Positions 12,388 to 43,442 of a stretch of DNA of 46,254 nt are shown piece after piece. The position numbers and the translations under genes were made by a program. Numbering within the stretch: the stretch's first letter is position 1; each line of letters starts with the position of its first letter. Under the pieces are notes generated by a model. It was given only the letters and a program-made list of their open reading frames with translations, did no database searches and was not told where the DNA came from. The stretch comes from Alphaproteobacteria bacterium (GTDB lineage: Bacteria > Pseudomonadota > Alphaproteobacteria > Rhizobiales > Devosiaceae): assembly GCA_018820005.1 (NCBI GenBank), contig JAHJOS010000511.1, positions 1 to 46,254 on the forward strand, read 5' to 3'.

Positions 12388-12542
12388 CGACGTTCACCGA
12401 TGCGCTGTTGGGGCCCGACGCTGCGGTTTTGCGAGGATGGATGTGCGCTACCTGGCATATCTGCCAGCTAGTTTTCCGAGCCAAACCCCTTAGGCTGGTG
12501 ATGAGGCATCGCGCCTCATCAACGTGAAAGAGGGGTATCGCT

Positions 12543-12683
12543 ATGTTCAAGCTTCTTCAAAAGCGCATTTCCAAACGAAACGTGGCCGATCGGGCCGTCG
12601 TCATCAAGAATGCCAAAGAGAAAATCAACGGCGTGCCGGGCGGCGCGATCGTCGAGGGCAGCTATGGCGTCTGGTCCCGTTGA
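12543..12683 (+). CDS. Lasso peptide precursor A (46 aa; leader MFKLLQKRISKRNVADRAVVIKNAKEKIN, core GVPGGAIVEGSYGVWSR)
   Basis: Hand-translated ORF with GAGGGG RBS; Gly1 and Glu9 ring partners; stop overlaps the cyclase start (TGATG). Confidence 0.85.
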   Translation: MFKLLQKRISKRNVADRAVVIKNAKEKINGVPGGAIVEGSYGVWSR

Positions 12684-26143: not shown

Positions 26144-26653
26144 TCAAAGGCTCGCCGACACCTGCCCGCAAATACACGAAAGAACGGGGGTTACACTTTG
26201 AGCTTTTCCGGACTCCAAAAGATCTTTTAGTTTGGATATAACAATACTTACAGAATCACCTTTATTTATCGGTGCTTCGCTGCTTTTGGCTGTATCTATC
26301 TCTGCGACTTGCGCATCCGCCATGGTTATAATGGCAATTTTTTCCTGATTCTTTCCCTTAACCAATATTTCGGTGGAGCCTATAATTTTTTCAAGCTCTT
26401 CTGGACATTCGTCAGTAGCATAAAAGTCGTTTGCAGGTACGAATTCGACCTTTTCGACTCCCTGGTCACTGAGGTGTTGACGCAGCTGGGTACTTGTCCA
26501 TCCTATTTGGACACCCTCTATTTCGCCGCTTTGCAAATCTTCTTGCTTGTAAAACAATTTCTTCGAAAATTTTCCCACCCCAGTTTCAGGGCAAGCTGCG
26601 GAGATGCTCGGCACTAATAGGGCGAGCAGGATTGCAATTTTATTTATCGCCAT
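26144..26653 (-). CDS. Putative immunity protein (exported) of orphan cassette 3
   Basis: Overlaps the end of the toxin tip; N-terminal signal peptide; AT-rich; 3' end possibly truncated. Confidence 0.65.
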
Positions 26654-27200
26654 GATTTTGGCCCCAGGCTCCAGGAATATTTGGTGCAGTCCCACCGGCA
26701 TTCTCGATTATGTTATCAGCCGCTGTATTGGAATTGTTGCCTGTTGGAGGAATTCGATAGGGCCCCTGAGAGTAGTTATTTCCCGAACCAGTTACTGCCT
26801 TATCAAAATCACTCTGAGTGGTTCCAGCAGGTGGCCAAATAATTCTGTTTGTATCATTAGCCCCGGGATTTTCAAATGCATTTCTGTCGTTATTGTAAGT
26901 ATCACTTTCGTTCTGGGTCATTGGCCCATTAGGTTTCACAGGGCCGGTGCCTCCGCCAGCTAGTGAGTACTGGCTATCAATCACTTTCTTCGAATTCCCG
27001 CACTTATCGAACTCCCAATGCCAAACGATAACGGCGCAATGAACTGGTTTAGCCATACCAGGAGGTAGCAATGAAAGCGGCCGACAAGTCATGGTGACTT
27101 CGAGTCCGTATTGGTCAATATATTTGAGTGGGTTCCCCATCGCATACCCGTAGGTATTCAGTCCCCCCTTAAGTCCAATCGGATCGCTTTCGACGTATCG
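26640..27200 (-). pseudogene. Orphan Rhs toxin tip, cassette 3
   Basis: [33 protein letters not shown], then a unique C-terminal domain with HC, Y..P..GNNSNT motifs; no proper start. Confidence 0.85.
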
Positions 27201-27312
27201 TCCGCCTACCTGGCGTCAAAGCTACAAACCCACACAGCCAAAGCCCCGCCCGCCTGCCTTTCAAGCCAGCACAAATCCACAAAGCAGCACGCTAACCAGC
27301 CACACCCCCCAA
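27175..27312 (-). repeat. Cassette leader repeat, copy A
   Basis: About 80% identical by eye alignment to 29202-29335; fused to the RYVESDPIG codons. Confidence 0.85.
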
Positions 27313-27334
27313 GGAAGGTGGACGAGCACCTTCC

Positions 27335-27616
27335 TCATGCAACCGCAAGCACAATGACGAAGCAAGACAGTGAAATGATGGAAGTTACTGCCGCTCGAAT
27401 GTAGGCCCTGACAATTTGACCCGCTTCAAGCGACATGCCTTTTGATTCCGGGTTCTTATACAGAATAAATTGCAAAACAACTGACGAGTAAAATTCATAC
27501 CCCTTTATGTTTGCAGAGCCGAGTGCGTCCTCTAATTCAGGCTTGATGCTTAAGCACTTAATCAGTCCGTATATCCCTGCACATAGCGCAGCGGTTAAAA
27601 TGGCACCTAAAATCAT
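27335..27616 (-). CDS. Putative membrane immunity protein of orphan cassette 2
   Basis: 93 aa with hydrophobic N- and C-terminal segments; starts 2 nt after the toxin stop. Confidence 0.65.
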   Translation of the reverse strand: MILGAILTAALCAGIYGLIKCLSIKPELEDALGSANIKGYEFYSSVVLQFILYKNPESKGMSLEAGQIVRAYIRAAVTSIISLSCFVIVLAVA

Positions 27617-27618
27617 GA

Positions 27619-28227
27619 TTACTCCAGTGGTATATTCAAGCCTACGCCAGATCCGGTGACTTTAGCACCGATAGCTGGTCCGACTCCTACACGGCCGGAA
27701 ACGCCATTTGTCCCTTGAGTGGAAGATACATCAACGCTGATTGGTCCATATATCGGCACAGATAATCCAGCAGACGTCCCTACTGTAGTCATTTTTGAAT
27801 TTACTGAGCCTGCCGATCCGGACACTCCAGCCGTTACGGAAACGCCTATGCCTATGCCCGGAGCAATCGAGAAACTCAGATTATTCTGGCTTGGTGAGAC
27901 ACTCAAATCGCCTGAAATAACTACCGGGACTGGCCCGAGTTGCCCCCAAACTCCAAGTTTAACGTCCACGTTAGATAAGCCTCGCGTCGAGCCTGGAAGC
28001 GCAGAAGCCAAGCCCGATGGGCAGTATCCTTCAGGATATGGGATGCCTCCGTTGCAGATCGTTTGCCCATACTCATCCTTCCAACATTTGCTTAAGCCAT
28101 AGGGATCTACAAAGATCAAAGGGTTTCCCCCAACATATCCATATGTGTTCAAGCCACCCGCCAGCCCGATCGGATCACTTTCGACATAGCGCCCCGTCTC
28201 GGGGTCGTAATCGCGGAAGTAGTTGTA
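27619..28227 (-). pseudogene. Orphan Rhs toxin tip, cassette 2
   Basis: [45 protein letters not shown], then a Gly/Val/Ser-rich beta-like domain. Confidence 0.85.
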
Positions 28228-28288
28228 AACTAATTCACATCAGCACCTCTGACTCCCGAGCTACCTGGTCGCATCGGCAGCACATTAC

Positions 28289-28312
28289 ACGCTGCGCTCA
28301 ACCCATCCTACG
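28289..28312 (-). repeat. Partial REP-like element
   Basis: Minus strand CGTAGGATGGGTTGAGCGCAGCG resembles GTAG-type pseudomonad REPs but lacks the second arm. Confidence 0.35.
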
Positions 28313-28314
28313 AG

Positions 28315-28731
28315 CTAATCAGCTAACTCAAACTCTAGGGAGTCAATTTGCTCTAATATAAATCCGTCGTCGTAATACAATTCCACATAAGGCTCTCCAC
28401 TCATCATTGTGCCCGCTGTGTCTATTGACTTGATTTTAAGCTTAGCTTCCCTTGAAATGGATATGCTGCGTGCGTGACAGTATATGTTTCCAGCACGCTG
28501 TGTTTTGCAGAACTGCTTTTGAGAATTGTCTGGGAGGATGTAATAGGCAGTTACCTCATCCCAGAACTCCTTCTCCCCAATCTTGAGCTCATCCAAAACC
28601 ATGACTTCAAACAGAGTTTTCTCTACGCAAGAAAACTCCGAGGGATCATCTGAGTTTTTCGAAAAGCACTCCACCCATAGTCTGTTGCTGTATGTGGCCC
28701 AGAGATTTATTTTTTTGGTTAGGACTAACAT
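28315..28731 (-). CDS. Putative cytoplasmic immunity protein of orphan cassette 1
   Basis: Acidic 138-aa protein starting 1 nt after the toxin stop. Confidence 0.7.
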   Translation of the reverse strand: MLVLTKKINLWATYSNRLWVECFSKNSDDPSEFSCVEKTLFEVMVLDELKIGEKEFWDEVTAYYILPDNSQKQFCKTQRAGNIYCHARSISISREAKLKIKSIDTAGTMMSGEPYVELYYDDGFILEQIDSLEFELAD

Positions 28732-28732
28732 A

Positions 28733-29227
28733 TTACTGCCCTCCGGTTCGCTGGGCGCCAGGGCGCGTTGCGTCAATTACATCCTGCCTTCTTACTCGCT
28801 CCGCATGGTTTGAAACGCCTGTTCTAACACTTCCATCAGGGAGAACATTGCGGAAGTTTGGGTGTGTGTGCTCTGCCATCCCAGCGTGAGGCTTTGAGGG
28901 GGGAGTATGGACCTCTTTGAATACGTCACCTTTCGCGTTGCGAACTTTAGTGATTCCTTGAGGCAGTGTCCCGCTAATAGTGCGAGGGACAGGACAGTAA
29001 GCACGTTCTCCTTGTGGGTTTAGACCGCCCCTGAGCCCCCCAATTGGCCCCACGCCTCCAGTTGGGTTACAGATCAACCCCTCAAAACCAGGCGTACAAA
29101 CATTGCCACCCAACCCATCATCAATCATCAATCCAAATGGATCGATAAAGTTAACGGGATTGCCTTCTACGTACCCGTAAGTGTTAAGCCCACCATTGAG
29201 CCCAATCGGATCACTTTCGACGTATCG
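28733..29227 (-). pseudogene. Orphan Rhs toxin tip, cassette 1 (His-rich, Ntox24-like putative nuclease)
   Basis: [33 protein letters not shown], then EVH..KPHAG..HTH..N..PDG. Confidence 0.8.
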
Positions 29228-29335
29228 TTCGCCTACGCGGCGTCGTAGCTACAATCCCACACAGCCCAAGCCCTACCTGCCTTCCACGCCCTCACAATCC
29301 AGCAAAGTGGCACTCTAACCAGCTACAACCCCCAA
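29202..29335 (-). repeat. Cassette leader repeat, copy B (element end downstream of the recombinase)
   Basis: Homologous to 27175-27312; contains GCTACAA twice. Confidence 0.85.
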
Positions 29336-29487
29336 TGCACTTTTTCGCTTAATTCCCGTGAACCGGACGTGCTTTTCAGCAAGCCGCGCGGGCGTGCAGG
29401 TGTGCGCGTGAGCGCACGGCAGTGCGAACGGGTGGCCATCAGCGGGCACCCAGGCAGCGGGAATGGTTGGGGGTGTGGCGAGGGCCG

Positions 29488-30516
29488 CTAGAGGTCTTCT
29501 TCGCTCTCTGCGCGCAGGGCGGCGAGCAAGGCGGCTTTATCCTGCAGCTTCGCCGGGTGGGTGGCGGTGTGGATTTCCTGCAGCTTGCGGATCGATACGT
29601 GGGTGTAGATCTGCGTGCTGTTCAGGTCGGCGTGGCCGAGCATGGCCTGGATGTACCGAATGTCCGCGCCATTCTCCAGCATGTGGGTGGCCATGGCGTG
29701 CCTGAGCAAGTGGCAGGAACCGGGCACGTTGATGCCGGCATGGCGCAGGAAGCGCTTCACCTTGTCGCCCACCTTGTTGTCGCGGAAGGGTTCGCCGTAA
29801 TCGTTGAGGAACAGGCACTGCTCGTTGATGTTGAGCAGCAGCTGCGGGCGCACATTATCCAGGTACGCCTGCAACCAGTGCCCTGCTCGCGCACCGAGCG
29901 GCAACAGACGGTCTTTGCCGCCCTTGCCATAGCGGACGAACAGGGTCATCTGGGCCAGCGAAATATCCGACAGCTGCAGAGCGCACAGCTCAGAGCGACG
30001 CAGGCCGGCGCTGTAGAACACTTCCAGAATGGCCCGATCACGCACACCGTAGGGCGTGCTCACGTCCGGCTGCAGCATCAGCTGCTCGATCTCGTCCAGC
30101 GTCAGTACCAATGGCAGGGAAGCCGTGTGCCGGGGCACAAACAGCTCCGAGGCGGGGTTGTAGAGCAGGTGATTTTCTTGCGTCAGCCATTTGAAGAACT
30201 GCCTAACGCTGGTGATGTAGTGGTTGCGGGTGCTGGGTGACAGCGCTTCGCCATTGGCCTGGCGGTAGTAGTACAGGTGCCTCTGGTAGCTCTCCAGAAT
30301 CGGCTTGGTCACGCTCTGCGGCCGGTCGATACCGAGCCCATCGCACCACCCAACAAAGCGCCGAATGTCGCTCTCGCGTCGGTGCAGGGTGCTGGGAGAG
30401 TAATTACGCACCTGCATGGTTTCGTTGTAGCGCAGCAGGTAGCCATAAAACCCGGTGTGCTCGATGGCCACCGGCAGGCGTTTGACCTTGATCGTACGTT
30501 TACGTTTGAGCGCCAT
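29488..30516 (-). CDS. XerC/XerD-like tyrosine recombinase
   Basis: Catalytic R (GLRRSE), K (GKGGK), HLLRH, LGH and Y (TQIYT) intact; N-terminal core-binding domain. Confidence 0.95.
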   Translation of the reverse strand: MALKRKRTIKVKRLPVAIEHTGFYGYLLRYNETMQVRNYSPSTLHRRESDIRRFVGWCDGLGIDRPQSVTKPILESYQRHLYYYRQANGEALSPSTRNHYITSVRQFFKWLTQENHLLYNPASELFVPRHTASLPLVLTLDEIEQLMLQPDVSTPYGVRDRAILEVFYSAGLRRSELCALQLSDISLAQMTLFVRYGKGGKDRLLPLGARAGHWLQAYLDNVRPQLLLNINEQCLFLNDYGEPFRDNKVGDKVKRFLRHAGINVPGSCHLLRHAMATHMLENGADIRYIQAMLGHADLNSTQIYTHVSIRKLQEIHTATHPAKLQDKAALLAALRAESEEDL

Positions 30517-30518
30517 GA

Positions 30519-33500
30519 TCACAACGCCTGATAGGTACTTTTCGGCGCACTCGCCGGCCATTCGTGGAAAGCCCCGGCGTGGCTGGCATCGGCCCTATTT
30601 GCAGGTGCCGCGATGACCCCGTTATGGCCCCGCGTTGGCCCCGCGAAGTGGGCCACCAGCCCCCGCGAAGTGCTCGTCATAGGCATGGGTTCGGACGCCT
30701 GGGCGTCGTGTGCGGGGTGGCTGATCAACTGCTCGACCGCCAGCAAACCCATCAAAAAGCTCCCACCGTCTTCGCCTTCGCCGCCGTACAACAGCTCGTA
30801 CTCGAACGATTGGCCACGCCCGCCGCGATGGGTCAGCAAGTACTCCATGTTGACCAAGCGCTGCACATGCACGCGCACCTGGGTTTCACTCCAGCCGCAG
30901 AGTTGGCGCACTTGCCGGCGGCTAAAGCGGAAGTCACGCTGCTCAATGCCCTGCGCTTTGGCCTCGGCGGTGACACGTTGCTTGATCAGGGTGAGCAACT
31001 GCCGGGTTTGCGGCGGCAGCTCGTCCAGGGTCTTGCCCAGCACCTCATGGGCCAGCCGATTGGCCAGGGCAATGTCCTCGCGCGTGGCCTCGATGTATTC
31101 CACCGGCTGACCGTGATGGTTCAGGGTTTTCACCGGGCGCTGGTACTGGTGCAGCAAGGCGATGCTGTCGATCAGCGTCAGGTACTTTTCATGGTCGCGG
31201 CGGGTGCGGGTCTTGTCGGCGAGAAAGGTCAGCTGATCGGCGAAGGGGTTGATCACGATCAGCGGTTTCAGCAGGCGCTGGGCGTTGCGGTGCAGCTGCA
31301 GAATGCGTTGTTTCTCCAGCTTGGTCTCCAGCCCCTGCAGGGTGCGTTTCACCCGCTGGATTTGATGGATGGCCTCGGTCTGCTCGCGCGATTCGTTCAC
31401 TGTGAGCACCAGGCAGCGGTTCATCAATTCTTCGTCGATGTCGATGGCGGTGGTGGTGAGGAACAACATCACTGGGCCTTCCACGCAGTAATCGCGGGTT
31501 ACCAGCTGGCCGCTGTTGTCGTCTTTGCCGGTGGAGGCAATCCGTACTTCGCCCTCGCTCTGCAGCAGCTTTAGCGCGTAGCTGGCGGTGTGTGCGCCTT
31601 CCTCTTCGGTGATGGCGAGGATCTTGTGTTTCAGCCGCGTCTCGCCCATGTAGAACAGGCTCTGCCCGGTCATGGCCGAATACTGCACGCGCTCGTCTTC
31701 GGGCATAAAGGCCAGCACCGCGTCCATCAACGATGACTTGCCGGCCGCGCTGGAACTCTGAATCACCACCGCTAGCGGTCGCTCCAGTTTGCGGCTGACG
31801 CCGGCGAGATAACCCACCAGCTTGTTGGTTTCCTCACCCACCACGCCGGCTGCTGTGAAGTCCGCCAGGATGCGTTCGGGCAAGACTGGATCGCGCAGCA
31901 GGGCCAGGGCAGCGGCGCGGGCCTCGCCGTCCATGCTGTCGACCGGGGATGACTCCACCGGACGCTGCTGGCGGAGCTGTTCCTGCTCCAGGGCCAGCAA
32001 CAGCTTGCCCAGGTCTTTCTTGATCACCTCGCCACTGACGCCCAGCTCGACACTGGCCTGGTTGGTAAACACCTGGCGCTGCTTGCTGCTGTACAGGTCA
32101 AGTTTGTCCATGTGGTAGTGCTCGTCGTTTTGCGCCAGCAGCTGGATTTTCAGTTGGTCGGCGCTGGCGTTCTTGTCCAGCCCGCGCACGCGGTACAGCC
32201 TGTCGCCAAACTGGGTGTACAGGCCATCGTCGCGGGCCTCTAGGGCAGCACCGGGTGCGGGCAAGGTCGGCATCGGCGTCGCCTGCGGGTCGATGGGGTT
32301 GTCCGGCATGGCCACGTCCGGCTCAGGCTGCGCAGTGACGGCGGCGACTTTAGCGGCTAAAGAAAAATCATCCGCCGCGGTGCTGATAACCGGGGCCGGC
32401 CCGCTGCCGTTGCCCATCCACTCAGCCTGGCGAAGCAACGCCGCCAGCGCCTTCTGCGCCGGCTGCATCTGGCAGGCGTACTGGTTGGCGTCCATGCCCT
32501 GGGGGAACAACACCCGGAACGCTTCGATGCCGTGCTGATTGAGCTGCTGCGCTACATCCTGAGCGGCCCGGTCGCCGGCCTCGTCGCGGTCGTAGGCAAT
32601 CAGCACCCGCTTTACGCCGATGCTGACCAAAGCCTGCAGCAGCTCGGCGGTGAAGCCGTTCACACCAAAACTCGCGGTCACCTGGCGAAAGCCTGCGCGC
32701 CAGAAGCTCAGCGCATCGATCAGCGACTCGCACAGAATCACCTCGCGGGCCGAAGCCAGCGCCGCCAGGTTGAACACCCCGACATGCGGCCCCGGCAGGT
32801 AGCTGTGTTTCGGCGTGCCTTCGCGCAGGTTATCCAGCAGCTTGCGGCCGTACACCTCGCCAATCACCCCGCTGGCGTCCATGCACGGAATCACCAGCGA
32901 GCCGTTGAAGTGTTCGTGCCCGGACTCGCGGTAGATGCCGATCTGTTGCAGGCGTGCACGCAACTCGGCACCGGTTTTACGGTTCTTCTGCGGCAGGCGC
33001 AGGCCCAGCGTGCGGTTGGCGTAGCCCAGTTTGAAGTGGCTGATCAGCTCGGCATCGTCCAGCCCGCGTTTCTGCAGATAGGCCAGGGCCTCGGGCGACT
33101 GCAGCAGGGTCTGGTGATAAAACTCGATTACCTCCTGCAGCAGTTGCTGTTCGTCACCCTGGACGGACACGGGCAGCGGCAGGCTCGGCACCGTGGATTT
33201 GCGCTGCGGCTCGGCAGCATCAGCGGCTAAAGAAAAAACCTGTCCGGTGTCGTTGGCCAGCCATTCCACTGCCGGGCGAAAGGCCAGGCTGCGGGTCTTC
33301 ATCACCCAATCGATTACCGAGCCGGCAGCACCACAACCGAAGCAGTGAAACAGGTTCGACTGCGGGCTGATCACGCACGACGGGGTTTTGTCGGCATGGA
33401 ACGGGCAGCACAGCGCAAAATCCTTGCCCTGCTTGGTCAGCACATGGCCCTGGCTCTCCACCAGCCGCAGCAGGGACACCTCGGCCTTGATCCGCTCGAT

Positions 33501-33524
33501 CACGTCATCAGCGATACGCGCCAT
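30519..33524 (-). CDS. CHC2 zinc finger-TOPRIM primase fused to a P-loop ATPase/helicase
   Basis: CPFH..CFGC zinc finger, CESLIDA and YDRD TOPRIM motifs, SSAAGKS Walker A; start MARIADD. Confidence 0.9.
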   Translation of the reverse strand: MARIADDVIERIKAEVSLLRLVESQGHVLTKQGKDFALCCPFHADKTPSCVISPQSNLFHCFGCGAAGSVIDWVMKTRSLAFRPAVEWLANDTGQVFSLAADAAEPQRKSTVPSLPLPVSVQGDEQQLLQEVIEFYHQTLLQSPEALAYLQKRGLDDAELISHFKLGYANRTLGLRLPQKNRKTGAELRARLQQIGIYRESGHEHFNGSLVIPCMDASGVIGEVYGRKLLDNLREGTPKHSYLPGPHVGVFNLAALASAREVILCESLIDALSFWRAGFRQVTASFGVNGFTAELLQALVSIGVKRVLIAYDRDEAGDRAAQDVAQQLNQHGIEAFRVLFPQGMDANQYACQMQPAQKALAALLRQAEWMGNGSGPAPVISTAADDFSLAAKVAAVTAQPEPDVAMPDNPIDPQATPMPTLPAPGAALEARDDGLYTQFGDRLYRVRGLDKNASADQLKIQLLAQNDEHYHMDKLDLYSSKQRQVFTNQASVELGVSGEVIKKDLGKLLLALEQEQLRQQRPVESSPVDSMDGEARAAALALLRDPVLPERILADFTAAGVVGEETNKLVGYLAGVSRKLERPLAVVIQSSSAAGKSSLMDAVLAFMPEDERVQYSAMTGQSLFYMGETRLKHKILAITEEEGAHTASYALKLLQSEGEVRIASTGKDDNSGQLVTRDYCVEGPVMLFLTTTAIDIDEELMNRCLVLTVNESREQTEAIHQIQRVKRTLQGLETKLEKQRILQLHRNAQRLLKPLIVINPFADQLTFLADKTRTRRDHEKYLTLIDSIALLHQYQRPVKTLNHHGQPVEYIEATREDIALANRLAHEVLGKTLDELPPQTRQLLTLIKQRVTAEAKAQGIEQRDFRFSRRQVRQLCGWSETQVRVHVQRLVNMEYLLTHRGGRGQSFEYELLYGGEGEDGGSFLMGLLAVEQLISHPAHDAQASEPMPMTSTSRGLVAHFAGPTRGHNGVIAAPANRADASHAGAFHEWPASAPKSTYQAL

Positions 33525-33581
33525 AAAACCCCCGGCTGGCAAAAACCTGTCAATAGCTTTGGAGTTAAAATAACCCCGTTG

Positions 33582-33610
33582 CAGAGTACTCTGTATCAGA
33601 GTACTGTCAA
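33582..33610 (-). promoter_or_regulatory. sigma70 promoter of the primase operon, overlapped by tandem palindromic operators
   Basis: TTGACA-16 bp-TACTCT on the minus strand; CAGAGTACTCTG (33582-33593) and CAGAGTACTGT (33597-33607). Confidence 0.7.
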
Positions 33611-33639
33611 CCGCTCGATCAAATCCAGGGGGTAGGGTT

Positions 33640-34029
33640 ATGCCATCAGCACTGCAGCGGATGAGCGCCATGACACCCGAAGACAAAGACTTCTATACAG
33701 ACTTGGGCCTGCGTATCGCCCAGGCCCGCAAAGCCCAAAACATCACTCAGCAGCAGATGGCCACGCTGCTCGGCATTTCCCAGCAAACCGTGGCGCATTA
33801 CGAAGTGGGTCGCTTGCGGATTTCCGTGGCCACGCTGCGGCAACTGGCCGAGGTGCTTAATTTCTCGGTCGATGAACTGGTGTACGGCATGGCGACTAAA
33901 GAAAAAGGCCGGCGCGGCCCCGACTCCAGGCTGCAACAGCAAATCGAGAAAGTTCGCCTGCTGCCCCGCACTAAGCAGCAGTTTGTGATGGACATGCTCG
34001 ATACGGTTATTCAGCAAACGGCGACATAA
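33640..34029 (+). CDS. XRE-family HTH repressor
   Basis: RIAQARKAQNITQQQMA..LGISQQTVAHYEVG HTH, KRGP-like tail; divergent from the primase; true start may be 33661 or 33670. Confidence 0.9.
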   Translation: MPSALQRMSAMTPEDKDFYTDLGLRIAQARKAQNITQQQMATLLGISQQTVAHYEVGRLRISVATLRQLAEVLNFSVDELVYGMATKEKGRRGPDSRLQQQIEKVRLLPRTKQQFVMDMLDTVIQQTAT

Positions 34030-34801: not shown

Positions 34802-34827
34802 AAAAACACCGGCGCGGAGCCGGTGTT
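34802..34827 (-). terminator. Intrinsic terminator after the Rhs immunity gene
   Basis: AACACCGGC/GCCGGTGTT stem ending in TTTTT on the minus strand. Confidence 0.75.
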
Positions 34828-34861: not shown

Positions 34862-35089
34862 TTAGTTGCCTTTTGCCAACGTATACGGCCGCATGGACTC
34901 ATGATCTTTATAAACAAACTGTTCGCAAATATCGACAAGTCCACCCATTGACTGCGCGACGCAAAGCTTCACCTCTAAAAACTCCTCTTCGCTTGTGTTC
35001 TCCTTAATATCTCTAAGAAGTTTTCCAAGAATGCTTATGCACTCTTGGGAGGCATTAAAAATAATTTCTGCTGATTTTTTATCCATCAC
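34862..35089 (-). CDS. Putative cognate immunity protein of the full-length Rhs
   Basis: 75-aa AT-rich helical ORF overlapping the Rhs stop codon. Confidence 0.75.
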   Translation of the reverse strand: MMDKKSAEIIFNASQECISILGKLLRDIKENTSEEEFLEVKLCVAQSMGGLVDICEQFVYKDHESMRPYTLAKGN

Positions 35090-37767
35090 TTAACTCCCAA
35101 GCAACCGCGAGAATCTAAACAATCTGAGTAGCACTTCTGAAAATTCATAGACTGTAGGTCTGTATCGGGAAGACCAGCGCTACATAGCGCCGCACACTCG
35201 GTTCTTGCGCGCTTGCAGCGGTCTGGATCGTCCTCATCTGGGGTGCAAGCCTCAACTGCTTTAGTAATTAGCGGCTGCAACCAAGGGTTGATATACCTGT
35301 CAGTTAAAATGAAGCTACCAACACCGACAGCCCCCACCGCCGCTGCCGCACAGGCACTACCACCAGTTGCAGCGCAGATAGAGCCAGCGCTTGGCAATGT
35401 TACCTTTAATACCTCGCCCACCGTGGCTACCTGCAGCCCCATCGGATCGGTGTAGCGCACCGGGTTGCCATGGACATACCCGTAGGTATTCAGACCACCA
35501 GCCAACCCAATCGGATCGCTTTCGACGTAGCGCCCCGTCTCGGGGTCATAATCGCGGAAGTAGTTGTAATGCAGCCCGCTTTCGTCGTCGTAGTACTGAC
35601 CGGGGAACCGGAGGTTGATGGTGGCAGTTCCATCAGCCGCACCGACGCCGAAGGCATCGGATTTCCATCGCCAGACTTCATCACCGGACTGGTTGGTGGC
35701 TAGCCTTGGGGTGTTGAGGTGGTCGGCATGCAGATAGAACGCGTTGCTGCTGGCGATGCCACCCTCAGCATCGTAGGTCAGGGTGATGCCACCTAAAGGC
35801 AGGCTGTCCAGCCACAGAAAGAACTGGCTGCTAAGCTTGGCGCCAGTGGGGCTGTACCGGGTTTCGCCAAGGAGCTGGCCGTTCGGGCCGTAAAGAAAGG
35901 TTGTTGTCGCTGTGCCGGTGATCTTGTTGGTTCGCTGGCCCAATGCGTTGTAGCGGTATTGCGCGATCACATTGCTGCCGATGTTCACCTGAGCCAATCG
36001 GCCCTGAGCATCGTACTCAAAGTTTCGGTTATTGCTGTATTGCGTCAGGCTGCCAGTGGCATCGGTGGTTACGGCCAGTCCGTCGATGCTTACAAGCCGA
36101 TTGCTGTCGCTCGCATAGCTGAGGTCGGTGACCACGCTGCCCATGGGCTGGCCTTCGCTCAGGCCGATGAGCGCTTTGCTGGTCCGGTTGCCCACCGCGT
36201 CGTAGCCATACTGTAAGCGCTGGTTGCCTTCATCTTCACGGATCAGCCGATCGAGCGCGTCATAACCGTAGAGCAGATCACCGAACAGGCCGCTCTCCAG
36301 GCTCTGGATATTGCTGTTGGCGTCGTAGCCATAATTGGCCTGCCAAGGTCCGACGCTTTGCTGGGTGAGTCGATAGTCCTGATCATAGGTGCGTGAAAGA
36401 TTGATGCCGTTGGCCCAGGTAAGACTCTTCAGCGGCCCGAACGGCAGATAGCTCAGGTCGCTGGCAAAGGCAGCAGGCTGTTCATCGATAACGATGTCGA
36501 CCTCTCCAACCTGCCCGGCAGCATTGCGTTGGTATTGCACGGCAAAGCCTGCCGGGTAATCGATGCGCGTGAGCTGACCAGCGCCATCGTAGCTGTACTG
36601 CAGCGTGTCATAGATATCGCTACCCACCACCTCGAGTGAGCGAAGCTGCTGCACCAGGTTGCCGCGTGCGTCGTAGCGATAGCCAAGCACTCCACTGGCA
36701 TCTTGCACGGTGGTCAGCCGGCCAACCCCGTGATTGCCGTCGGCGGTCATGTCGTAGTGGTACTGAACGTTGAGCGCCGGGTTGGCGGGGTACGTTTTAC
36801 TGGTCAGACGATTCAGGGCGTCGTAGCTGTAGCTCGTGACCACGCCGCGGGCGTCGGTCTTGCGGATCACGTTGCCGGCCGCGTCATGTATAAATGTGGC
36901 CGTGCCGCTGTCTGGACTGACTAGTTGAGTAAGATTACCTACCCCATCGTACCGGTACTGGGTGGTAACGCCTCTCGGGTCGCTTACCTGGGTGAGGTTA
37001 TCCTGAGCATCATAACCAAGGGCAGTAACGCCATTGAGCGGGTCGGTGCTGGTGACCAAGCGATCCAGTGCATCGTAGCTGTTGGTGGTGCTGTGTTGCT
37101 TGGGGGTGGTACCAACCGCGAGATTATCGTTCAGGTCGTAGCCGTACTGCCTGGTCTGGCCTTGTGCACCGACGGCGCGCAGCAGGCGTCCGAGCTCGTC
37201 ATATACCCAGGTCTGCTGCTGGGTCAGTGCACCGGTGGCATCATTGAGACGCTGAGCGGTGCGGTTGCCCATGAGGTCGTAGTCATATTCAACCTTCTCG
37301 CCCAAACTGTTGGTAACCGCTTTCAGACGACGGGCACCGTCCCAGGTGTACTGCAGCCAGCTCCCGTCACCGCGGGTCACCTTAGCGATCTGCCCAATGG
37401 CGTCGTGCTCGAAGCTCGTGCTGCTGCCGGCAGTGCTTGTGGAACTCAGCCAGCCCTGGGGCGTGTAGGTCAGGGTGGTCGTCACACCGTTGGCATCTAT
37501 CAGGCTCTGCGGGTTGCCGTAGGTGTCGAAGTTCGAGAGCTGTGTGACATGGCCAAGGGCATTGGCTACCTGTGTCAGGTGGCCTTGGGCGTCATAGGTG
37601 TAGGTGGTGACATCTGACACGTCGCTGCGAGGGCCGTCGGCCGTCTCGATCAGTCCGAGGCTGTTGTAGGTGTAGCTCCAGCTGCGCTCAAGCGCTTGGA
37701 CGCTTGGCACACCCAGTGCCGTCGCGAGCGTTAGCGCAAGTAGACTTATGCGATGCGATGATTTCAT
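35086..37767 (-). CDS. Rhs protein, C-terminal half (own signal peptide, YD repeats, Rhs core, Cys-rich toxin tip)
   Basis: MKSSHRISLLALTLATALGVPSVQA signal peptide; YD repeats; [35 protein letters not shown]. Confidence 0.93.
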   Translation of the reverse strand: MKSSHRISLLALTLATALGVPSVQALERSWSYTYNSLGLIETADGPRSDVSDVTTYTYDAQGHLTQVANALGHVTQLSNFDTYGNPQSLIDANGVTTTLTYTPQGWLSSTSTAGSSTSFEHDAIGQIAKVTRGDGSWLQYTWDGARRLKAVTNSLGEKVEYDYDLMGNRTAQRLNDATGALTQQQTWVYDELGRLLRAVGAQGQTRQYGYDLNDNLAVGTTPKQHSTTNSYDALDRLVTSTDPLNGVTALGYDAQDNLTQVSDPRGVTTQYRYDGVGNLTQLVSPDSGTATFIHDAAGNVIRKTDARGVVTSYSYDALNRLTSKTYPANPALNVQYHYDMTADGNHGVGRLTTVQDASGVLGYRYDARGNLVQQLRSLEVVGSDIYDTLQYSYDGAGQLTRIDYPAGFAVQYQRNAAGQVGEVDIVIDEQPAAFASDLSYLPFGPLKSLTWANGINLSRTYDQDYRLTQQSVGPWQANYGYDANSNIQSLESGLFGDLLYGYDALDRLIREDEGNQRLQYGYDAVGNRTSKALIGLSEGQPMGSVVTDLSYASDSNRLVSIDGLAVTTDATGSLTQYSNNRNFEYDAQGRLAQVNIGSNVIAQYRYNALGQRTNKITGTATTTFLYGPNGQLLGETRYSPTGAKLSSQFFLWLDSLPLGGITLTYDAEGGIASSNAFYLHADHLNTPRLATNQSGDEVWRWKSDAFGVGAADGTATINLRFPGQYYDDESGLHYNYFRDYDPETGRYVESDPIGLAGGLNTYGYVHGNPVRYTDPMGLQVATVGEVLKVTLPSAGSICAATGGSACAAAAVGAVGVGSFILTDRYINPWLQPLITKAVEACTPDEDDPDRCKRARTECAALCSAGLPDTDLQSMNFQKCYSDCLDSRGCLGVK

Positions 37768-37784
37768 TGGTCAGTTCCTTCTGA

Positions 37785-39419
37785 TCAGCGTTCGGTAAGG
37801 GTCTGGCTAAGCGGATTTCCGTGTGCGTCGTAATTGAACTGCACGATGCGCTCGGGCTCGGTGATGGTGACGGGTCTGAAGAGCGTTGGGTGCCACTCGG
37901 TGATGATCGTCCGGGCCTGTGGCGTACCGGCTGCTTCGGTCCGACTGATCTCTAGGCCGCGATCGTTGTAGATGAATGTCGTCTGATTACCCTTGTTGTC
38001 GGTGCGGGTCTTGATTAAACCGCGGCTGTCATAGGTGAACGTGGAATTGCTGCTAGGACAGTTGGCCGATGCTGCTCCTGAGAGCGAGGTGATGCGCTTG
38101 GCGCCCGCGATGGTTTGGAAGCTATAGGTGGCTTTCTTGCCGAGTGGATTGGTCAGTGTTGTCGAGTTGCTACCGTAGGCGAACTGGTAGCGGTCGGCAC
38201 CACCGGCATGCTCGCTCTTGGTAGCACGTCCCTGTGCATCGTAAGTCCAGGTGGCGTAACGCACACCGCGCTCGTCGGTAATGCCGGTCAGCCAGCCGCC
38301 TTCACGTGCGTCTTCGTAATGGTAGGTGCGAGAAAGGGCCTGCCCATTCTGGGTTCGCGTCGCCTTGGTCAGACGGCCGGCCGTACTGTAGGTGTAGCTC
38401 ACCTGCAGGTCGTCAACCATCAGCGTGGCCAACCGTTGAGCTGCGTTGAACGTCAGCGTCATCGCATGGCCGAGTGAGTCAGTGACCACGATGGCGTTGG
38501 CGCTGTACGAAAGAATCTCGTATGTGCCGTTCGCACGGTCGATACGGGTCAGTTGTCCTGCGCTGTCGAAATGCAGGTGCTCGTTTCGCGGGGAGTCGTA
38601 GCGCCAACCTTGAGTCGTCTTTTCAAGACGCCCTAGCTCTTTGGGTGATGCGGCCACGGTAGTACCGCTTACGCTGAACAGGCTTTGGCGTCCATCGGCG
38701 TCAATGAGTAGCGCCTTGGTGGGAGAAAGCTTGAGTCGCGCGGCGTAAGTATGCGTCCAACTGGTCGTTCTGCTGTTGTAGTAGCGTATGAAGCGCATTT
38801 CGCTACCGGAACGACCGGAATAGTCTATTTCAGTCTGGAATTTGTTTCCGTAAGCCACGTCGACCGGGTTACCAGCGCTCAGGCTTGGGGAACCCTGTCC
38901 AGCAAGTAAGGGTGGCGCTGACGGTACAGGACAGGCACCAGGCAGGTCCGGTGCACCAACCCCCGGAACGTCGGGGCAGAGCAGCTCCGCGGGTCGGTTG
39001 TAAAAGACCGGGCCGGCAAAGACTCCATAATGCGTTTGCTTGGCAACGGCGAAGTTTCTCGCGGAGACGCCATCGACCGAGCCGGTGAAGTTGTCGTGGA
39101 GCAGGATTGCGTGTGTCTTGCAGTCGTTGGTGAACACCCGCTTCATGTTTGCATTGCTCGATTTCAGCGTTTCGAGCATCTGGTCCGGTGTGTACCACGC
39201 GCTACTATCAAGCCACTTGATCACCTTGCCTCCGGAACATTGCAAGTTCGCGATCTGGTACAGGTACTGACCCGAGCCATCTGGTGGCTGAGATGCGAAG
39301 ACTTCTGTTCCGAAATAGCTAACGCCACCTGTCGTGCAGCTAGCGGCGGCGAGGGCGGATTGGTTTAGAAATGCGGTGCTAACAAGGGCGAGAGCAAGCG
39401 TGCTGGAGAAACGATCCAT
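37785..39419 (-). CDS. Rhs protein, N-terminal half (signal peptide, DUF6531-like domain, YD repeats)
   Basis: Signal peptide ending ALA; GNPVDVAYGNK..FIRYYNS..WTHTY; YD repeats; no Rhs core. Confidence 0.88.
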   Translation of the reverse strand: MDRFSSTLALALVSTAFLNQSALAAASCTTGGVSYFGTEVFASQPPDGSGQYLYQIANLQCSGGKVIKWLDSSAWYTPDQMLETLKSSNANMKRVFTNDCKTHAILLHDNFTGSVDGVSARNFAVAKQTHYGVFAGPVFYNRPAELLCPDVPGVGAPDLPGACPVPSAPPLLAGQGSPSLSAGNPVDVAYGNKFQTEIDYSGRSGSEMRFIRYYNSRTTSWTHTYAARLKLSPTKALLIDADGRQSLFSVSGTTVAASPKELGRLEKTTQGWRYDSPRNEHLHFDSAGQLTRIDRANGTYEILSYSANAIVVTDSLGHAMTLTFNAAQRLATLMVDDLQVSYTYSTAGRLTKATRTQNGQALSRTYHYEDAREGGWLTGITDERGVRYATWTYDAQGRATKSEHAGGADRYQFAYGSNSTTLTNPLGKKATYSFQTIAGAKRITSLSGAASANCPSSNSTFTYDSRGLIKTRTDNKGNQTTFIYNDRGLEISRTEAAGTPQARTIITEWHPTLFRPVTITEPERIVQFNYDAHGNPLSQTLTER

Positions 39420-39534
39420 GTTCCAAAATCCTGCGTCAGGGATGATGCAGGTAGGCTAGATTCGGGTTCGCAAAGTGTCAGCCGCTGCTTTGTGGCCGAG
39501 TCCGCAAAACTGACGACCGCTTGTCGGGTTTGTT

Positions 39535-40131
39535 CTAAAGCGGGTTTTTGTTAATGCGAACTAGAGGCTCTAAACGTAGCTCCGTTGCACTTTCGGAGCT
39601 CGTAGGGCGGAGTTTCTTCAGATAAAAATCCGTAAGGTAGGCATACCGTACGACCTGTCCTACTGGCTTAGTTGGAGCTTTCATTGCGTCGGGAAAATAA
39701 AGTGGATCAAGCGATCCGTCGCGCGACAGGACGACATAGCTGGGTTGCACCTCTTCCAGAATCGCACCAGACACGATCTGGTCACCTAGTTTGAAGAGGC
39801 GAGGGGGACGGCCCGAAACCATAATGATGGCCGAAGATCGTTCGCTCATCGGGTGCACGAAGCTACCCACTAATGTCATCGGAAGCGGAGATCGTTCGTG
39901 AACAGGCTGTGTCTGCTGTCGATGTTCGCCGAACAGATTTTCCCGATACTTGACAGGCGCTTTCGTGGGCTCAAGCACTGCCTGTTCGCGGGCAGGCTCT
40001 TTGAGCAGAACCTCGCTAAGTTGCTGCCATTGTCTGTAAATATTCACGCTCACTCCCATCGCTACGACAAGCGACACCGCCCACGGCAGGGCGCGATGTC
40101 TGAGGATCGTGAGAATCAAGCGAGCTTTCAT
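39535..40131 (-). CDS. Type II secretion GspC/XcpP-like protein
   Basis: N-terminal TM helix, then LPMTLVG..SSAII..FKLGDQI..ILEEVQPSYVVLSRDG..LYF (HR domain); start could be 40164. Confidence 0.75.
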   Translation of the reverse strand: MKARLILTILRHRALPWAVSLVVAMGVSVNIYRQWQQLSEVLLKEPAREQAVLEPTKAPVKYRENLFGEHRQQTQPVHERSPLPMTLVGSFVHPMSERSSAIIMVSGRPPRLFKLGDQIVSGAILEEVQPSYVVLSRDGSLDPLYFPDAMKAPTKPVGQVVRYAYLTDFYLKKLRPTSSESATELRLEPLVRINKNPL

Positions 40132-40513
40132 GTGGGGCTGCAATCCAAATACTGCACAGCTCATTTTTCACGATTCTGAGAAAAGGTCGAACAGTTTGCG
40201 GCCCAGACTTGATGTGGTGCGCAAAGCAGTGGCGGCATAGAGCCGTGCTGCCCTTTCTGCTTTCCTACCAGAAAAAATTTGCGAACACGTCGTGGAGCGA
40301 CCAGGCGCGGATGGTACCGGCGCGGCAGGGCGTCGCTGACCAAGCGTAGGGCAAGAGGGCTGTATCGCTTTGGAACAGCCCGACTCGCGTCCAGACGAAT
40401 ACCCCGCATTACGGTCGCCGAGCCAACTGCGTCAGCCGACCTCAGGGAGGGCATGATGGACGCCCGAGGGGACGAGACGGCCGTCGGGAGACGCCCTTGC
40501 GCTTCACGCGCAT

Positions 40514-42379
40514 TCAACTAGGCCCAGCCACCAACCCAGCCCTGAAATGCTCAGCCGTCTCCGCATCCGTGCAGTACAGGTAGCATCCCTTCATCCCGCG
40601 CGTCATGAGCGTACGGTAGGTATTCTTGATGATCAGATCCGTCTCTTGTCTAGCCAGATCCGGATGCGTCTTCATGAGCTTCTTATAGCCGCGGATCGAC
40701 CGGTCCTGTTTGTCACGCCGATCTGGAGAGGTAATGACCTCGCCGTTGCGCACGATCAGGTCGGGCCCGATGATCACGCCGATGTAATCGACCTCAAGCC
40801 CCTGGCAGGTATGGATGCACCCGACCTGCTCGATGGATTCCTCGGCGATGATCCACAGGCTTCCGTCCTGGCTCAGGTTCCACTGCCGGCGGTAGTCACC
40901 AATGACGATGTCGTCGGCCAGCGGATCCTTCTTGCTGCGCCACGGCCAGCAGTAGCCCGCCACCACCCGTGCCTTGTTCTCCCCGTTACGCGCTTCGATC
41001 GCTTCATGCAGCGCCTCAGGCGTATCGAACACCCGAAAGTCGTACTCGCTTGCATCGAGCCGCTCGTTGGCCGTCAGCCTGATGTCGAGCACTTGATCGA
41101 GCCAAGCGAGATACCCATCCGAGCCGCTGCAACGAAACTGTGAAGCCAGGTTGTACTCCTCAACCACCGCACCCTTGGCCTCGGCAAACGCCCGGATCGC
41201 CTGCTTGCTACCAATGTCGCTCAGGGTGACGCGCTGGTCTTCATCGATGAAGAAGACCGTGCACTTGGCGGCACCAATGAGCTCCTTGATTTGGTTGTCA
41301 CCGAGGTTGGCGTACAGGCCGCTCTTCTCGTTAAGGCGGTGGGCCTCGTCGACGATGAGCATGTCGAAGATATTCGGGTCGGCATCCACAAACGCACCGG
41401 AGCCGGTGAACATGTGCGAGAAGCGGGTGCGCGTCATCGAGCCGACCAGCTTCGTCTCATAGACCTTGCGGGGCGCGGCGTTCTTGGACACGTATTTGCC
41501 CACCAGTCCCAAGGAGGTGAGATGCACCAGCAGGTTGATGGCCAGCACCGTCTTGCCGGTCCCAGGCCCGCCTTCGACGATGACCACCCGCGACTGGGCG
41601 GAGGAGGCTGCCTTGGCTGCGGCAATGGCCGCCTCGTAGACCTCTTTCTGATCATCGATCAGCACGAACTCAGGCTTCTCGGCCAGCAACCCTTTAAGTG
41701 AATCCGCCAGTGCCTTGGACGGCCTGATCTTGCCGTTGGCAAGCTCGTACAGCACCGCCTTGTCATCACCGTACTTGATGTACTTCTTGATGAAGGCGCG
41801 CAGCTGCTCGAGCTCATCCTTGCCCTTGAAAAAGAGCGGCGCCTTGTCGATGTAAGGCTGGTAATGGGCCGCGTCGATGACGCCGTCACGCACGTAGTTG
41901 TGCAGGTACGCGCATGGCCTGACCGAGATGCTCTGGTCGTATACCGCCTCGTTGAAACCCTCCGGCAAAGAGGCGTAGGACCAGGCCTGATAGGACGGAT
42001 GAACTGTCTCCCTCAAACCCTTGCCCAGGGCGGTGACAACGATCGCATCCTTGGCCGTGACCTTGGCTGTACTCCATTGCTTGAGCTCGACCAGCACGGC
42101 GTTCTTGCCGCCGGCATCGTCCCGGCCGGTCAAGGTAAAGTCGATGCGCTTGGACGACTGCGGGATGTGGAGCTCGATGGCAAGCCCGGTGTCGCCGGGC
42201 AACCCCTCGTCTCGCAGCACCTTGGCCATGTAGCCGAGCGATCCCTTCCAGGAGTCGATCTCCGAACGCCCGACCCGCTTGCCGGTGCGAGCGGTGAAGT
42301 GGGCGAGGATCACGTCCTCGATGTCGTCATTGTCGGTGTCGTGCAGGAACTGCTGCTTGGTTGCTTCGTAAACGATCAC
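40514..42379 (-). CDS. DUF2075-like nuclease-helicase
   Basis: N-terminal E..RID..VELKQW (PD-(D/E)xK-like), GGPGTGKT, IVDEAH, QFRC, CIHTCQGLE and YRTLMTRG motifs. Confidence 0.85.
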   Translation of the reverse strand: MIVYEATKQQFLHDTDNDDIEDVILAHFTARTGKRVGRSEIDSWKGSLGYMAKVLRDEGLPGDTGLAIELHIPQSSKRIDFTLTGRDDAGGKNAVLVELKQWSTAKVTAKDAIVVTALGKGLRETVHPSYQAWSYASLPEGFNEAVYDQSISVRPCAYLHNYVRDGVIDAAHYQPYIDKAPLFFKGKDELEQLRAFIKKYIKYGDDKAVLYELANGKIRPSKALADSLKGLLAEKPEFVLIDDQKEVYEAAIAAAKAASSAQSRVVIVEGGPGTGKTVLAINLLVHLTSLGLVGKYVSKNAAPRKVYETKLVGSMTRTRFSHMFTGSGAFVDADPNIFDMLIVDEAHRLNEKSGLYANLGDNQIKELIGAAKCTVFFIDEDQRVTLSDIGSKQAIRAFAEAKGAVVEEYNLASQFRCSGSDGYLAWLDQVLDIRLTANERLDASEYDFRVFDTPEALHEAIEARNGENKARVVAGYCWPWRSKKDPLADDIVIGDYRRQWNLSQDGSLWIIAEESIEQVGCIHTCQGLEVDYIGVIIGPDLIVRNGEVITSPDRRDKQDRSIRGYKKLMKTHPDLARQETDLIIKNTYRTLMTRGMKGCYLYCTDAETAEHFRAGLVAGPS

Positions 42380-42399
42380 GCGGTCTTCCTTGGCCGAGT

Positions 42400-42783
42400 C
42401 TAGAGCTGGTCGTATTTCTTGCTCGTGTTGCGCGCTTTGTCCACCGGGTACTTCTCGCCATTGCGCTTGAGCTTGTCCTGCACGGCCTCATCCAGATCGA
42501 CACCCAGCACATCAGCCAGACGAACCAGGTACATCAGGACATCGGCCAACTCGTCTCGCACCGCCTGGGCGGTTTCAGATGTCTGCGCCGCCGTGATCGA
42601 CTGCTCTTCAGTCATCCACTGGAAGATCTCGGAGAGCTCACCGGTTTCCCCGGTCAGGGCCATGGTCAGGTTCTTGGGCGAATGAAACTGCGCCCAGTTG
42701 CGCGCATCGGCAAAGGCCTCGAGGGCTTCGGCAAGTCGCGTCGTGTCAACGAGCGCAGGGGAGAGCGGGGCATCAGTGGACAC
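42400..42783 (-). CDS. MazG-like nucleotide pyrophosphohydrolase
   Basis: RNWAQFHSPKNL..ETGELSEIFQW..DELADV..KYP; GTG start with AAGGA RBS. Confidence 0.9.
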   Translation of the reverse strand: MSTDAPLSPALVDTTRLAEALEAFADARNWAQFHSPKNLTMALTGETGELSEIFQWMTEEQSITAAQTSETAQAVRDELADVLMYLVRLADVLGVDLDEAVQDKLKRNGEKYPVDKARNTSKKYDQL

Positions 42784-43442
42784 GAGAGGATCCTTGAAGA
42801 GAAAACGCCGGAAGATCATACGTGAGCGCTGTGCGATTGTGATGCTGCGCCAAGCCTGCCCAGTGGCAAGCCAGGCCCCCCATCGGCATCTGCCCGATGC
42901 CAGTAAGCTGAGTTCAATAAATGGGTCGTGAATCGGCCGGCACCGTCGGTTCAGAATCGCAGGCTAAGCCCCGCATCATTGATCCCGCCTACGTGCTTGC
43001 CCAAACAAGCCACAACGGAGCGTCGATACTGCGGTCGTTTGAGGATGCCGACGAGCGCTTTCTGGACCATTGCTGACGGTCCAGCTAGGTCAAGGGCCGC
43101 GCCCCAAGCTCGTCGGACAAGCGCTTCACCTGTCCGGCGAACGGAGGTACGGGCGCAGCGCACCCTTGAACCCACTCCGACACCAGCACTCTTCGCCAGG
43201 GATGAGAGGGTGCTCCACCCCCTATCATCCCTGGCCTCGCCGAGAGTACCCGAAGGGCCGCCGGAGGCGCTGTTTGCGCTGATCAGTCGATGACTAGGGC
43301 GTTGGGCTTTGTTCACTCAGTTGTCTGTAGAGGCGGCTGCAGCTTTGAAGGCTTTGTCCTCGCAAGTGCTAAGGCTTGTTGCTGCTTAAGCTATCCGCGC
43401 GTAACTGTCATATCGGACGAAAGCGTACGTCTGGCGTACTGC

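What the first reader, a model, noticed from the sequence alone, without database searches (positions are those of the whole stretch)
35086..40131. Dedicated GspC-like gene heading the Rhs locus: possible type II secretion of a polymorphic toxin
A lone GspC/XcpP-like gene lies co-oriented directly upstream of two Sec-exported Rhs halves. Established: GspC contributes to T2SS substrate selection, and T2SS exports folded periplasmic complexes. Inference: a substrate-specific adaptor routes the Rhs toxin through a T2SS encoded elsewhere.
Basis: inference. Interest (0 to 1): 0.72.

Follow-up and report, generated by a model that had tools for sequence, protein, structure and literature searches.

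The report
Two-gene Rhs with its own GspC
A Stutzerimonas gene cassette pairs a predicted antibacterial Rhs toxin, split over two genes that each start with a predicted export signal, with its own copy of the type II secretion clamp protein GspC, which likely helps the host's type II machine export the toxin, although most related cassettes lack such a copy.

Summary
Observation confirmed. Window 39535-40131 encodes a GspC-family protein (transmembrane helix, HR domain, short basic tail) directly upstream of an Rhs split into two genes, each with a signal-peptide-like start, then a variable C-terminal domain and a putative immunity gene. It is not a plain gsp-operon leftover: dN/dS is 0.24-0.43, it travels with the Rhs core as one 4.8-kb block, and six co-oriented Rhs-linked copies (down to 30% identity) form their own clade apart from gspD-linked GspC. 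But it is optional: intact in 5 of 49 Pseudomonadaceae genomes whose Rhs flanks I saw, broken in two loci, and 15 of 53 genomes with this Rhs family have no GspD above cut-off. The contig is mis-binned, so its host's T2SS cannot be checked; the nearest held genome has one. Best reading (0.5): an accessory, Rhs-dedicated GspC that couples the periplasmic two-chain toxin to the host Xcp system. No binding or secretion evidence exists. Precedents: a gspD-dependent Rhs bacteriocin in Xanthomonas, and orphan XphA/XqhA. The combination was not found in ten literature searches, nor earlier in this scan. New variant of known kinds.

The parts
39535..40131 (-). GspC/XcpP paralogue, 198 aa: one predicted transmembrane helix (residues 14-32), linker, HR domain (about 82-147), 50-aa basic tail without PDZ or acidic coiled coil; an in-frame ATG at 40164 would add 11 residues
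   Evidence: PF11356 51.4 bits; model and fold search; hydropathy and dN/dS; tail charge
37785..39419 (-). Rhs first half, 544 aa: signal-peptide-like start, Cys-containing N-terminal domain of no known family (about 25-148), Pro-rich linker, DUF6531, YD repeats forming the first part of the shell
   Evidence: VIA Z 28.9, rmsd 3.0 over 344 residues to Rhs core 8qja; no Pfam family for the N-terminal domain at E 5
35086..37767 (-). Rhs second half, 893 aa: signal-peptide-like start, YD repeats, Rhs-associated core, DPMG autocleavage-type motif at residue 774
35086..35433 (-). variable C-terminal extension (115 aa; Gly/Ala-rich hydrophobic stretch, then a Cys-rich part), the predicted toxin; activity unknown
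   Evidence: unrelated extensions on a 92%-identical core in G305 and others; no Pfam family at E 5
34862..35089 (-). 75-aa ORF overlapping the Rhs stop by 4 nt; putative immunity gene
   Evidence: position; no family above cut-off; terminator-like hairpin at 34805-34827
29488..34029 (.). XRE regulator (33640-34029 +), DnaG-like primase-helicase (30519-33686 -) and XerC-like recombinase (29488-30561 -) between the main rhs and the orphan cassettes
26144..29335 (-). three orphan Rhs core-tail/C-terminal modules with small downstream ORFs (cores at 29033-29227, 28081-28233, 27063-27203)

Best explanation
The first gene encodes a GspC paralogue that belongs to an Rhs-linked clade and travels with a two-gene Rhs cassette, and it likely acts as an optional, substrate-dedicated clamp subunit that helps the host's Xcp type II secretion system export the toxin. 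Shown: domain anatomy, the conserved split, the polymorphic C-terminus, co-transfer, purifying selection, the separate clade. Inferred, in order: both halves cross the inner membrane by Sec; they assemble in the periplasm into one Rhs shell around the C-terminal domain; the paralogue, anchored in the inner membrane, docks by its HR domain on the host secretin in place of, or beside, the housekeeping GspC; its different (basic rather than acidic) tail or its HR surface favours the Rhs complex as cargo; the released particle binds a competitor through the variable N-terminal domain of the first half and delivers the cleaved C-terminal domain; the 75-aa protein protects the producer. Cassettes without the paralogue would use the housekeeping GspC or another route.
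For: Co-transfer: the window and G305 share one DNA block, 35462-40236 at 87%, that covers gspC-like and both Rhs cores, with different flanks and toxin, while their chromosomes are 94% alike elsewhere. Linkage at depth: co-oriented directly upstream of a first-half gene in G305, L015, L016, G041, G733 and G732, at 83% down to 30% identity, in unrelated surroundings. Clade: Rhs-linked copies group at 95/100 with the tail and 95/97 without it (six co-oriented rows); grouping with G305's own GspC is rejected, p-AU 0.0015. Specificity: in 401 genomes the three matches over 200 bits to a clade profile all precede a first-half gene, and the next 22 are all followed by gspD; G041 and G733 were in the profile, G732 was not (a relative placed by the tree was). 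Selection: dN/dS 0.24-0.43 in five Stutzerimonas-type pairs and 0.15-0.24 in three deeper pairs, against 0.28 and 0.42 for two gspD-linked pairs. Tail: net charge +2 to +5 in six Rhs-linked proteins, -6 to -16 in 20 gspD-linked ones; the GspC C-terminal region selects a subset of substrates in Vibrio and Dickeya (PMC12369372, abstract and Introduction). Partner machine: G305 has gspC-gspD and gspE-L above cut-off; 6 of 6 genomes with a linked copy have GspD; two of them (G733, G732) show no T6SS sheath match. Precedent: the Rhs bacteriocin Bcn-A loses activity in an xpsD mutant (PMC7259588, passages).
Against: The gene is missing from most loci: intact in 5 of 49 genomes, a remnant in G687 and a second copy with an internal stop in G732; close relatives G700, G590, G042, G310 and G648 have a T2SS and the Rhs but no linked copy. 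GspD is below cut-off in 15 of 53 genomes with this family; G052, G125, G210 and G230 hold both Rhs halves intact with no PF11356 match, only a PilQ-like secretin and no GspK-sized match, and belong to one supported second-half clade of six (G265 in it has a full-length secretin below cut-off). The 6-of-6 association with GspD is not significant (p 0.12; kin not independent). By BLAST the window protein scores about the same to G041's linked copy (72 bits) as to gspD-linked GspC (68 bits), so the clade rests on long branches. The window's own host genome is not available.
Confidence: 0.5

Rival explanations
1. The two-chain Rhs leaves the periplasm by a T2SS-independent route in all hosts (outer-membrane vesicles, lysis or the type IV pilus secretin), and the GspC paralogue does something else to the T2SS, such as tuning or plugging it.
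For: 15 of 53 genomes lack GspD above cut-off, including a six-member clade with intact halves; all 34 genomes tested keep a PilQ-like secretin; GspC-HR shares its fold with PilP.
Against: No candidate exporter was seen among 42 flanking proteins scanned (of 99 listed) from those loci; a GspC-derived gene kept under selection beside the Rhs in T2SS-positive hosts is most simply a T2SS link.
Confidence: 0.2
2. The protein is a membrane-anchored periplasmic chaperone or assembly factor for the two Rhs halves, working like LipB or CpaB, and no longer docks on the secretin.
For: N-terminal membrane anchor and position next to the substrate match T2SS chaperones (PMC4713064, abstract); it lacks the acidic coiled-coil tail.
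Against: The HR domain, which binds GspD N0 (PMC3169554, passages), is the best-conserved part (dN/dS 0.07-0.42); most loci fold or persist without it; no chaperone family is hit.
Confidence: 0.15
3. The gene is a passenger or leftover of an old gspC-gspD pair next to which the cassette once sat, with no role in Rhs biology.
For: Frequent absence and two broken copies; in G244 a first-half gene lies 1.7 kb from a divergent gspC-gspD pair; extra gspC copies are common in this family.
Against: Purifying selection like housekeeping GspC, linkage kept down to 30% identity and across unrelated insertion sites, own clade, no gspD remnant beside it.
Confidence: 0.15

Closest known systems
Bcn-A of Xanthomonas perforans (PMC7259588; passages read)
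   Same: Rhs/YD-repeat bacteriocin of about 1,400 residues found in the supernatant; activity lost in an xpsD (gspD) mutant; accessory and immunity genes in the locus.
   Different: One polypeptide; the passages read describe no GspC homologue among its accessory ORFs.
XphA/XqhA of Pseudomonas aeruginosa (review passage PMC6567927; primary paper not held)
   Same: GspC paralogue outside the xcp locus that forms a hybrid system with the other Xcp parts.
   Different: Comes with its own secretin XqhA and is not tied to one substrate gene; here GspC is alone and tied to an Rhs.
GspC/EpsC/XcpP/OutC/LspC (PMC3169554 passages; PMC12369372 abstract and Introduction)
   Same: Membrane helix, linker, HR fold.
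   Different: No PDZ or acidic coiled coil; not next to gspD; separate clade.
Membrane-bound T2SS chaperones LipB and CpaB (PMC4713064, abstract)
   Same: N-terminal membrane anchor, encoded beside the cognate secreted protein.
   Different: Unrelated domain; here the accessory protein derives from a core machine subunit.
EssC8 variant with Rhs toxin LrhA in Listeria (PMC10327511, abstract)
   Same: A variant of the substrate-recognition subunit of a secretion system encoded next to an Rhs toxin.
   Different: Type VII system, Gram-positive, variant replaces the core gene in its operon.
T6SS Rhs effectors (RhsA, Tse5, RhsP) and Tc toxin B-C pairs
   Same: YD shell fold, core motif, variable C-terminus, orphan modules; Tc B-C also builds one shell from two chains (recalled).
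   Different: No PAAR or VgrG-type domain or chaperone gene in the locus; signal-peptide-like starts on both halves; no Tc A subunit.
Signal-peptide ('T2SS/Sec-dependent') polymorphic toxins of Zhang et al. 2012 (PMC3482391, passages)
   Same: Signal peptide plus RHS repeats plus variable toxin.
   Different: That table lists no signature neighbouring gene for this class and uses 'T2SS' for default Sec export; the passages shown did not describe a two-gene form.

Membership tests
GspC/XcpP family | HR domain | tested here: met
   PF11356 51.4 bits over cut-off 27; top fold matches LspC, ETEC GspC, PulC; PDB sequence match to LspC E 4.4e-6
GspC/XcpP family | single N-terminal membrane helix before the HR domain | tested here: met
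   19-residue window from residue 14, mean hydropathy 1.64; helix 3-43 in the model; simple hydropathy only
GspC/XcpP family | C-terminal PDZ or coiled-coil domain (usual, absent in LspC) | tested here: not met
   50-aa basic, low-confidence tail; no PDZ hit
GspC/XcpP family | binds the N0 domain of GspD and supports secretion | not tested
housekeeping gspC of a gsp operon | encoded directly before gspD | tested here: not met
   followed by an Rhs gene in the window and six other loci
XphA/XqhA-type orphan GspCD pair | paired orphan secretin gene | tested here: not met
   no secretin in the window or beside the linked copies
Rhs polymorphic toxin | YD-repeat shell | tested here: met
Rhs polymorphic toxin | Rhs core ending in PxxxxDPxG | tested here: met
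   TIGR03696 85 bits; DPMG at residue 774
Rhs polymorphic toxin | variable C-terminal domain, adjacent immunity gene, orphan modules | tested here: met
   unrelated extensions in five loci compared; 75-aa overlapping ORF; three orphan cores; immunity by position only
Rhs polymorphic toxin | toxicity neutralised by the immunity protein | not testable with these tools
   no family for either protein
T6SS-delivered Rhs | PAAR/VgrG-binding N-terminus or linked vgrG/eagR, no signal peptide | tested here: not met
   no such Pfam or NCBIfam hit in the locus; signal-peptide-like starts in 40 of 40 second halves and 49 of 57 first halves by a lenient rule that also fires on 154 of 355 control frames
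T2SS-secreted Rhs (Bcn-A-like) | host encodes a complete T2SS | tested here: inconclusive
   the window's bin is another organism; nearest held genome G305 has gspC-D and gspE-L; 15 of 53 family genomes lack GspD over cut-off
T2SS-secreted Rhs (Bcn-A-like) | secretion depends on gspD/gspE | not testable with these tools
   needs mutants
membrane-bound T2SS chaperone (LipB/CpaB class) | N-terminal anchor and gene beside the cognate substrate | tested here: met
membrane-bound T2SS chaperone (LipB/CpaB class) | loss abolishes secretion of the cognate substrate only | not testable with these tools
   needs mutants

The most novel reading that the evidence does not exclude
A mobile toxin cassette brings its own substrate-selecting GspC subunit, which reprograms whichever host Xcp machine it meets to export a two-chain Rhs particle assembled in the periplasm, with a swappable targeting domain on one chain and a swappable toxin on the other: a plug-in specificity module for type II secretion and a contact-independent Rhs weapon that is polymorphic at both ends.
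Probability: 0.35. Interest if true: 0.8.

Novelty: new variant of a known kind. Interest (0 to 1): 0.6.

Why it matters
How the T2SS picks its folded substrates is a long-open question. A natural pair of one substrate and one dedicated GspC paralogue, beside a housekeeping GspC in the same cell, makes it testable by gene and tail swaps. It would also add type II secretion, with a cassette-borne adaptor, to the routes of Rhs toxins in Pseudomonadaceae. Independently, the conserved two-gene Rhs family with tandem alternative first halves, and its persistence in genomes with no detectable T2SS, raises an unanswered export question.

Tried and rejected
Own-genome search for T2SS and T6SS: G000 holds only this PF11356 match, one Tad-type secretin and no T6SS sheath, but the contig is a compositional outlier (7th of 243) and matches Stutzerimonas, not the bin's genus, so this absence was discarded. 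Complex prediction of the first-half N-terminal domain with the GspC-like periplasmic part: no answer, score 0.01. Search for longer or fused forms of the GspC-like clade: none among 7,989 candidates, weak evidence. Single-protein scan of genome contigs with the GspC-like protein: nothing; plasmids: nothing. Atlas search of the N-terminal domain through a stored homologue: no usable hit; that domain was not folded alone, so its fold is untested. No family for the C-terminal extension, the 75-aa ORF or the orphan modules. No RNA holder listed. Promoter scan: 1 site against 3.2 expected. The idea that the paralogue goes with one N-terminal-domain type was rejected: G732 links it to other types, and 4 of 9 genomes or windows with the window's type lack it. 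The idea that the inverted copy in G464 belongs to the clade is unsettled: inside with the tail, outside without it. The GspD query was in the wrong frame and was redone. Ten paper searches (listings only unless a paper is cited) showed no description of a GspC paralogue linked to an Rhs or of this two-gene family; subscription journals are largely missing and no supplements were read.
Full report
Observation. The three ORFs are present and co-oriented on the minus strand. The first carries a GspC HR domain above the Pfam cut-off, predicted as a membrane helix, linker and beta domain that matches LspC, ETEC GspC and PulC first in the PDB, with E-values just above 0.001. The second and third are the two parts of one Rhs: a fused 1425-aa homologue aligns to them end to end, the second folds like the first part of solved Rhs shells, and the third ends in the core motif and a 115-aa extension, followed by an overlapping 75-aa ORF. 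Contigs from another study bridge both gene junctions, so neither the split nor the linkage is an assembly error.

Host. The contig is Stutzerimonas-like: its proteins cluster with Stutzerimonas-named records and its first 12 kb are 94% identical to genome G305 but barely match two genomes of the bin's own genus; it is a tetranucleotide outlier in the bin, whose one secretin is of the Tad type by its neighbours and sequence (my reading). The bin therefore says nothing on the host's T2SS. G305 has gspC-gspD at one site and gspE-L at another.

The Rhs family. The first half has relatives in 34 of 401 Pseudomonadaceae genomes, 23 of 401 in a genus draw and 1 of 67 in G305's genus. In the 51 fetched regions analysed together, 49 hold separate first-half genes and 2 hold a fused form; 13 of the 49 carry two to four first-half genes, most in tandem, with dissimilar N-terminal parts. 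The break point is the same throughout, and 40 of 40 complete second halves and 49 of 57 first halves pass a lenient signal-peptide rule that also passes 154 of 355 control frames. C-terminal extensions are unrelated among five loci compared, including G305 with a 92%-identical core. This is a polymorphic toxin family with variation at both ends; that the N-terminal domain picks the target is an inference.

Linkage of the GspC-like gene. It lies directly upstream of a first-half gene in G305, two metagenome loci, G041, G733 and G732, and inverted inside an array of first halves in G464. Adjacent accession numbers show the same pair in further named records. Window and G305 share exactly the block from 100 bp above the gene to the end of the Rhs core. 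Over the union of both draws, 53 genomes, flanks were seen in 49 (some only 1.5 kb or cut by a contig end, and not every locus of each genome; G086, G097, G102, G333 not seen): 5 have an intact linked copy and G687 a remnant. G732 has a second copy with an internal stop. Conversely, a clade profile run over 401 genomes matched 67; the three matches over 200 bits precede a first-half gene and the next 22 precede gspD; about half of the 74 matches were seen in context, and two of the three top hits were in the profile.

Evolution. Rhs-linked copies form one clade apart from 27 gspD-linked or accessory GspC rows (95/100). Without the tail and without rows of unknown context, the six co-oriented copies stay together (95/97) and the inverted G464 copy does not. 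A tree that joins the window's group to G305's own GspC is rejected (p-AU 0.0015). Branches are long, and pairwise BLAST alone does not separate the groups. dN/dS is 0.24-0.43 for five Stutzerimonas-type pairs and 0.15-0.24 for three deeper, partly saturated pairs; two gspD-linked pairs give 0.28 and 0.42, and the Rhs halves 0.09-0.11. The tail after the HR domain is basic in six linked proteins and strongly acidic in all 20 gspD-linked ones. In a second-half tree, five of the seven members of the window's supported clade carry the gene, which suggests old presence with losses.

T2SS co-occurrence. GspD is over cut-off in 20 of 34, 14 of 15 and 5 of 5 genomes tested; in the union 38 of 53. All six genomes with a linked copy have it, which chance allows (p 0.12). 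Four GspD-negative genomes checked further (G052, G125, G210, G230) have intact halves, no PF11356 match, only weak PF03934 matches unlike G305's GspK, and ATPases I read by size as PilB and relatives (not confirmed by an equivalog scan); G052's contig spans about its whole genome size. They fall in one supported clade, and no exporter was seen among 42 of 99 flanking proteins scanned. So the family can persist without a detectable T2SS.

Mechanism. The most economical reading is an accessory GspC dedicated to this cargo: HR domains dock on GspD N0 (PMC3169554, passages), GspC C-terminal regions select subsets of substrates (PMC12369372, abstract and Introduction), orphan GspC-D pairs form hybrids with Xcp (PMC6567927, passage), and one Rhs bacteriocin needs XpsD (PMC7259588, passages). 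Each step from periplasmic assembly to secretion is inferred. Rivals are T2SS-independent release with another role for the paralogue (0.2), a chaperone role (0.15) and a passenger (0.15).

Novelty. Each ingredient has a precedent; the combination was not seen in ten searches of the held library, and earlier findings of this scan show no look-alike. Verdict: real, conserved but optional; new variant of known kinds; interest 0.6.

Noticed in passing
window 1-46254 (G000:C484): The contig is Stutzerimonas-like but sits in a bin of another lineage; contigs C165, C344 and C665 share its composition.
   Followed up: partly
L060, L061, L064, L066, L069, L075, L131, L136, L139, L141, L144, L146, L153: Two to four first-half Rhs genes with dissimilar N-terminal domains, mostly in tandem before one second-half gene: possible combinatorial targeting.
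   Followed up: partly
L064, L066, L067, L069, L075, L096 (G125, G052, G230, G265, G210, G293): A supported clade of two-gene, signal-peptide Rhs in genomes without GspD above cut-off; export route unexplained.
   Followed up: partly
L133:1716-7506, L135:3422-9235, L134:11-2482: Cassettes of gspD, a membrane-anchored ORF of no family, an M12 protease with CBM4/9 and a short gspC: a second case of T2SS subunits packaged with one likely substrate (gspD not seen in L134, which starts within the protease).
   Followed up: partly
L118:793-2094, L128:2-2115: Two or three tandem gspC-like frames before gspD in G301 and G369.
   Followed up: no
window 26144-34029; L091:7576-11067: XRE, DnaG-like primase and XerC-like recombinase between the main rhs and three orphan toxin modules; a similar primase-recombinase-orphan set lies near the G305 locus.
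   Followed up: no
L062:12859-19165, L096:13703-17507: Two-gene Rhs loci next to filamentous-prophage genes (Zot; a secretin in L062).
   Followed up: no
window 40514-42819; L057, L131 flanks: The cassette sits among defence-type genes: Schlafen-group-3 helicase with MazG-like gene here; SMODS, HORMA and AAA genes in G305; patatin in G732.
   Followed up: no
window 10387-16484: TonB receptor, asparagine-synthase-like gene, transglutaminase-like core3 gene and ABC transporter in a row, resembling a lasso-peptide cluster (label recalled).
   Followed up: no
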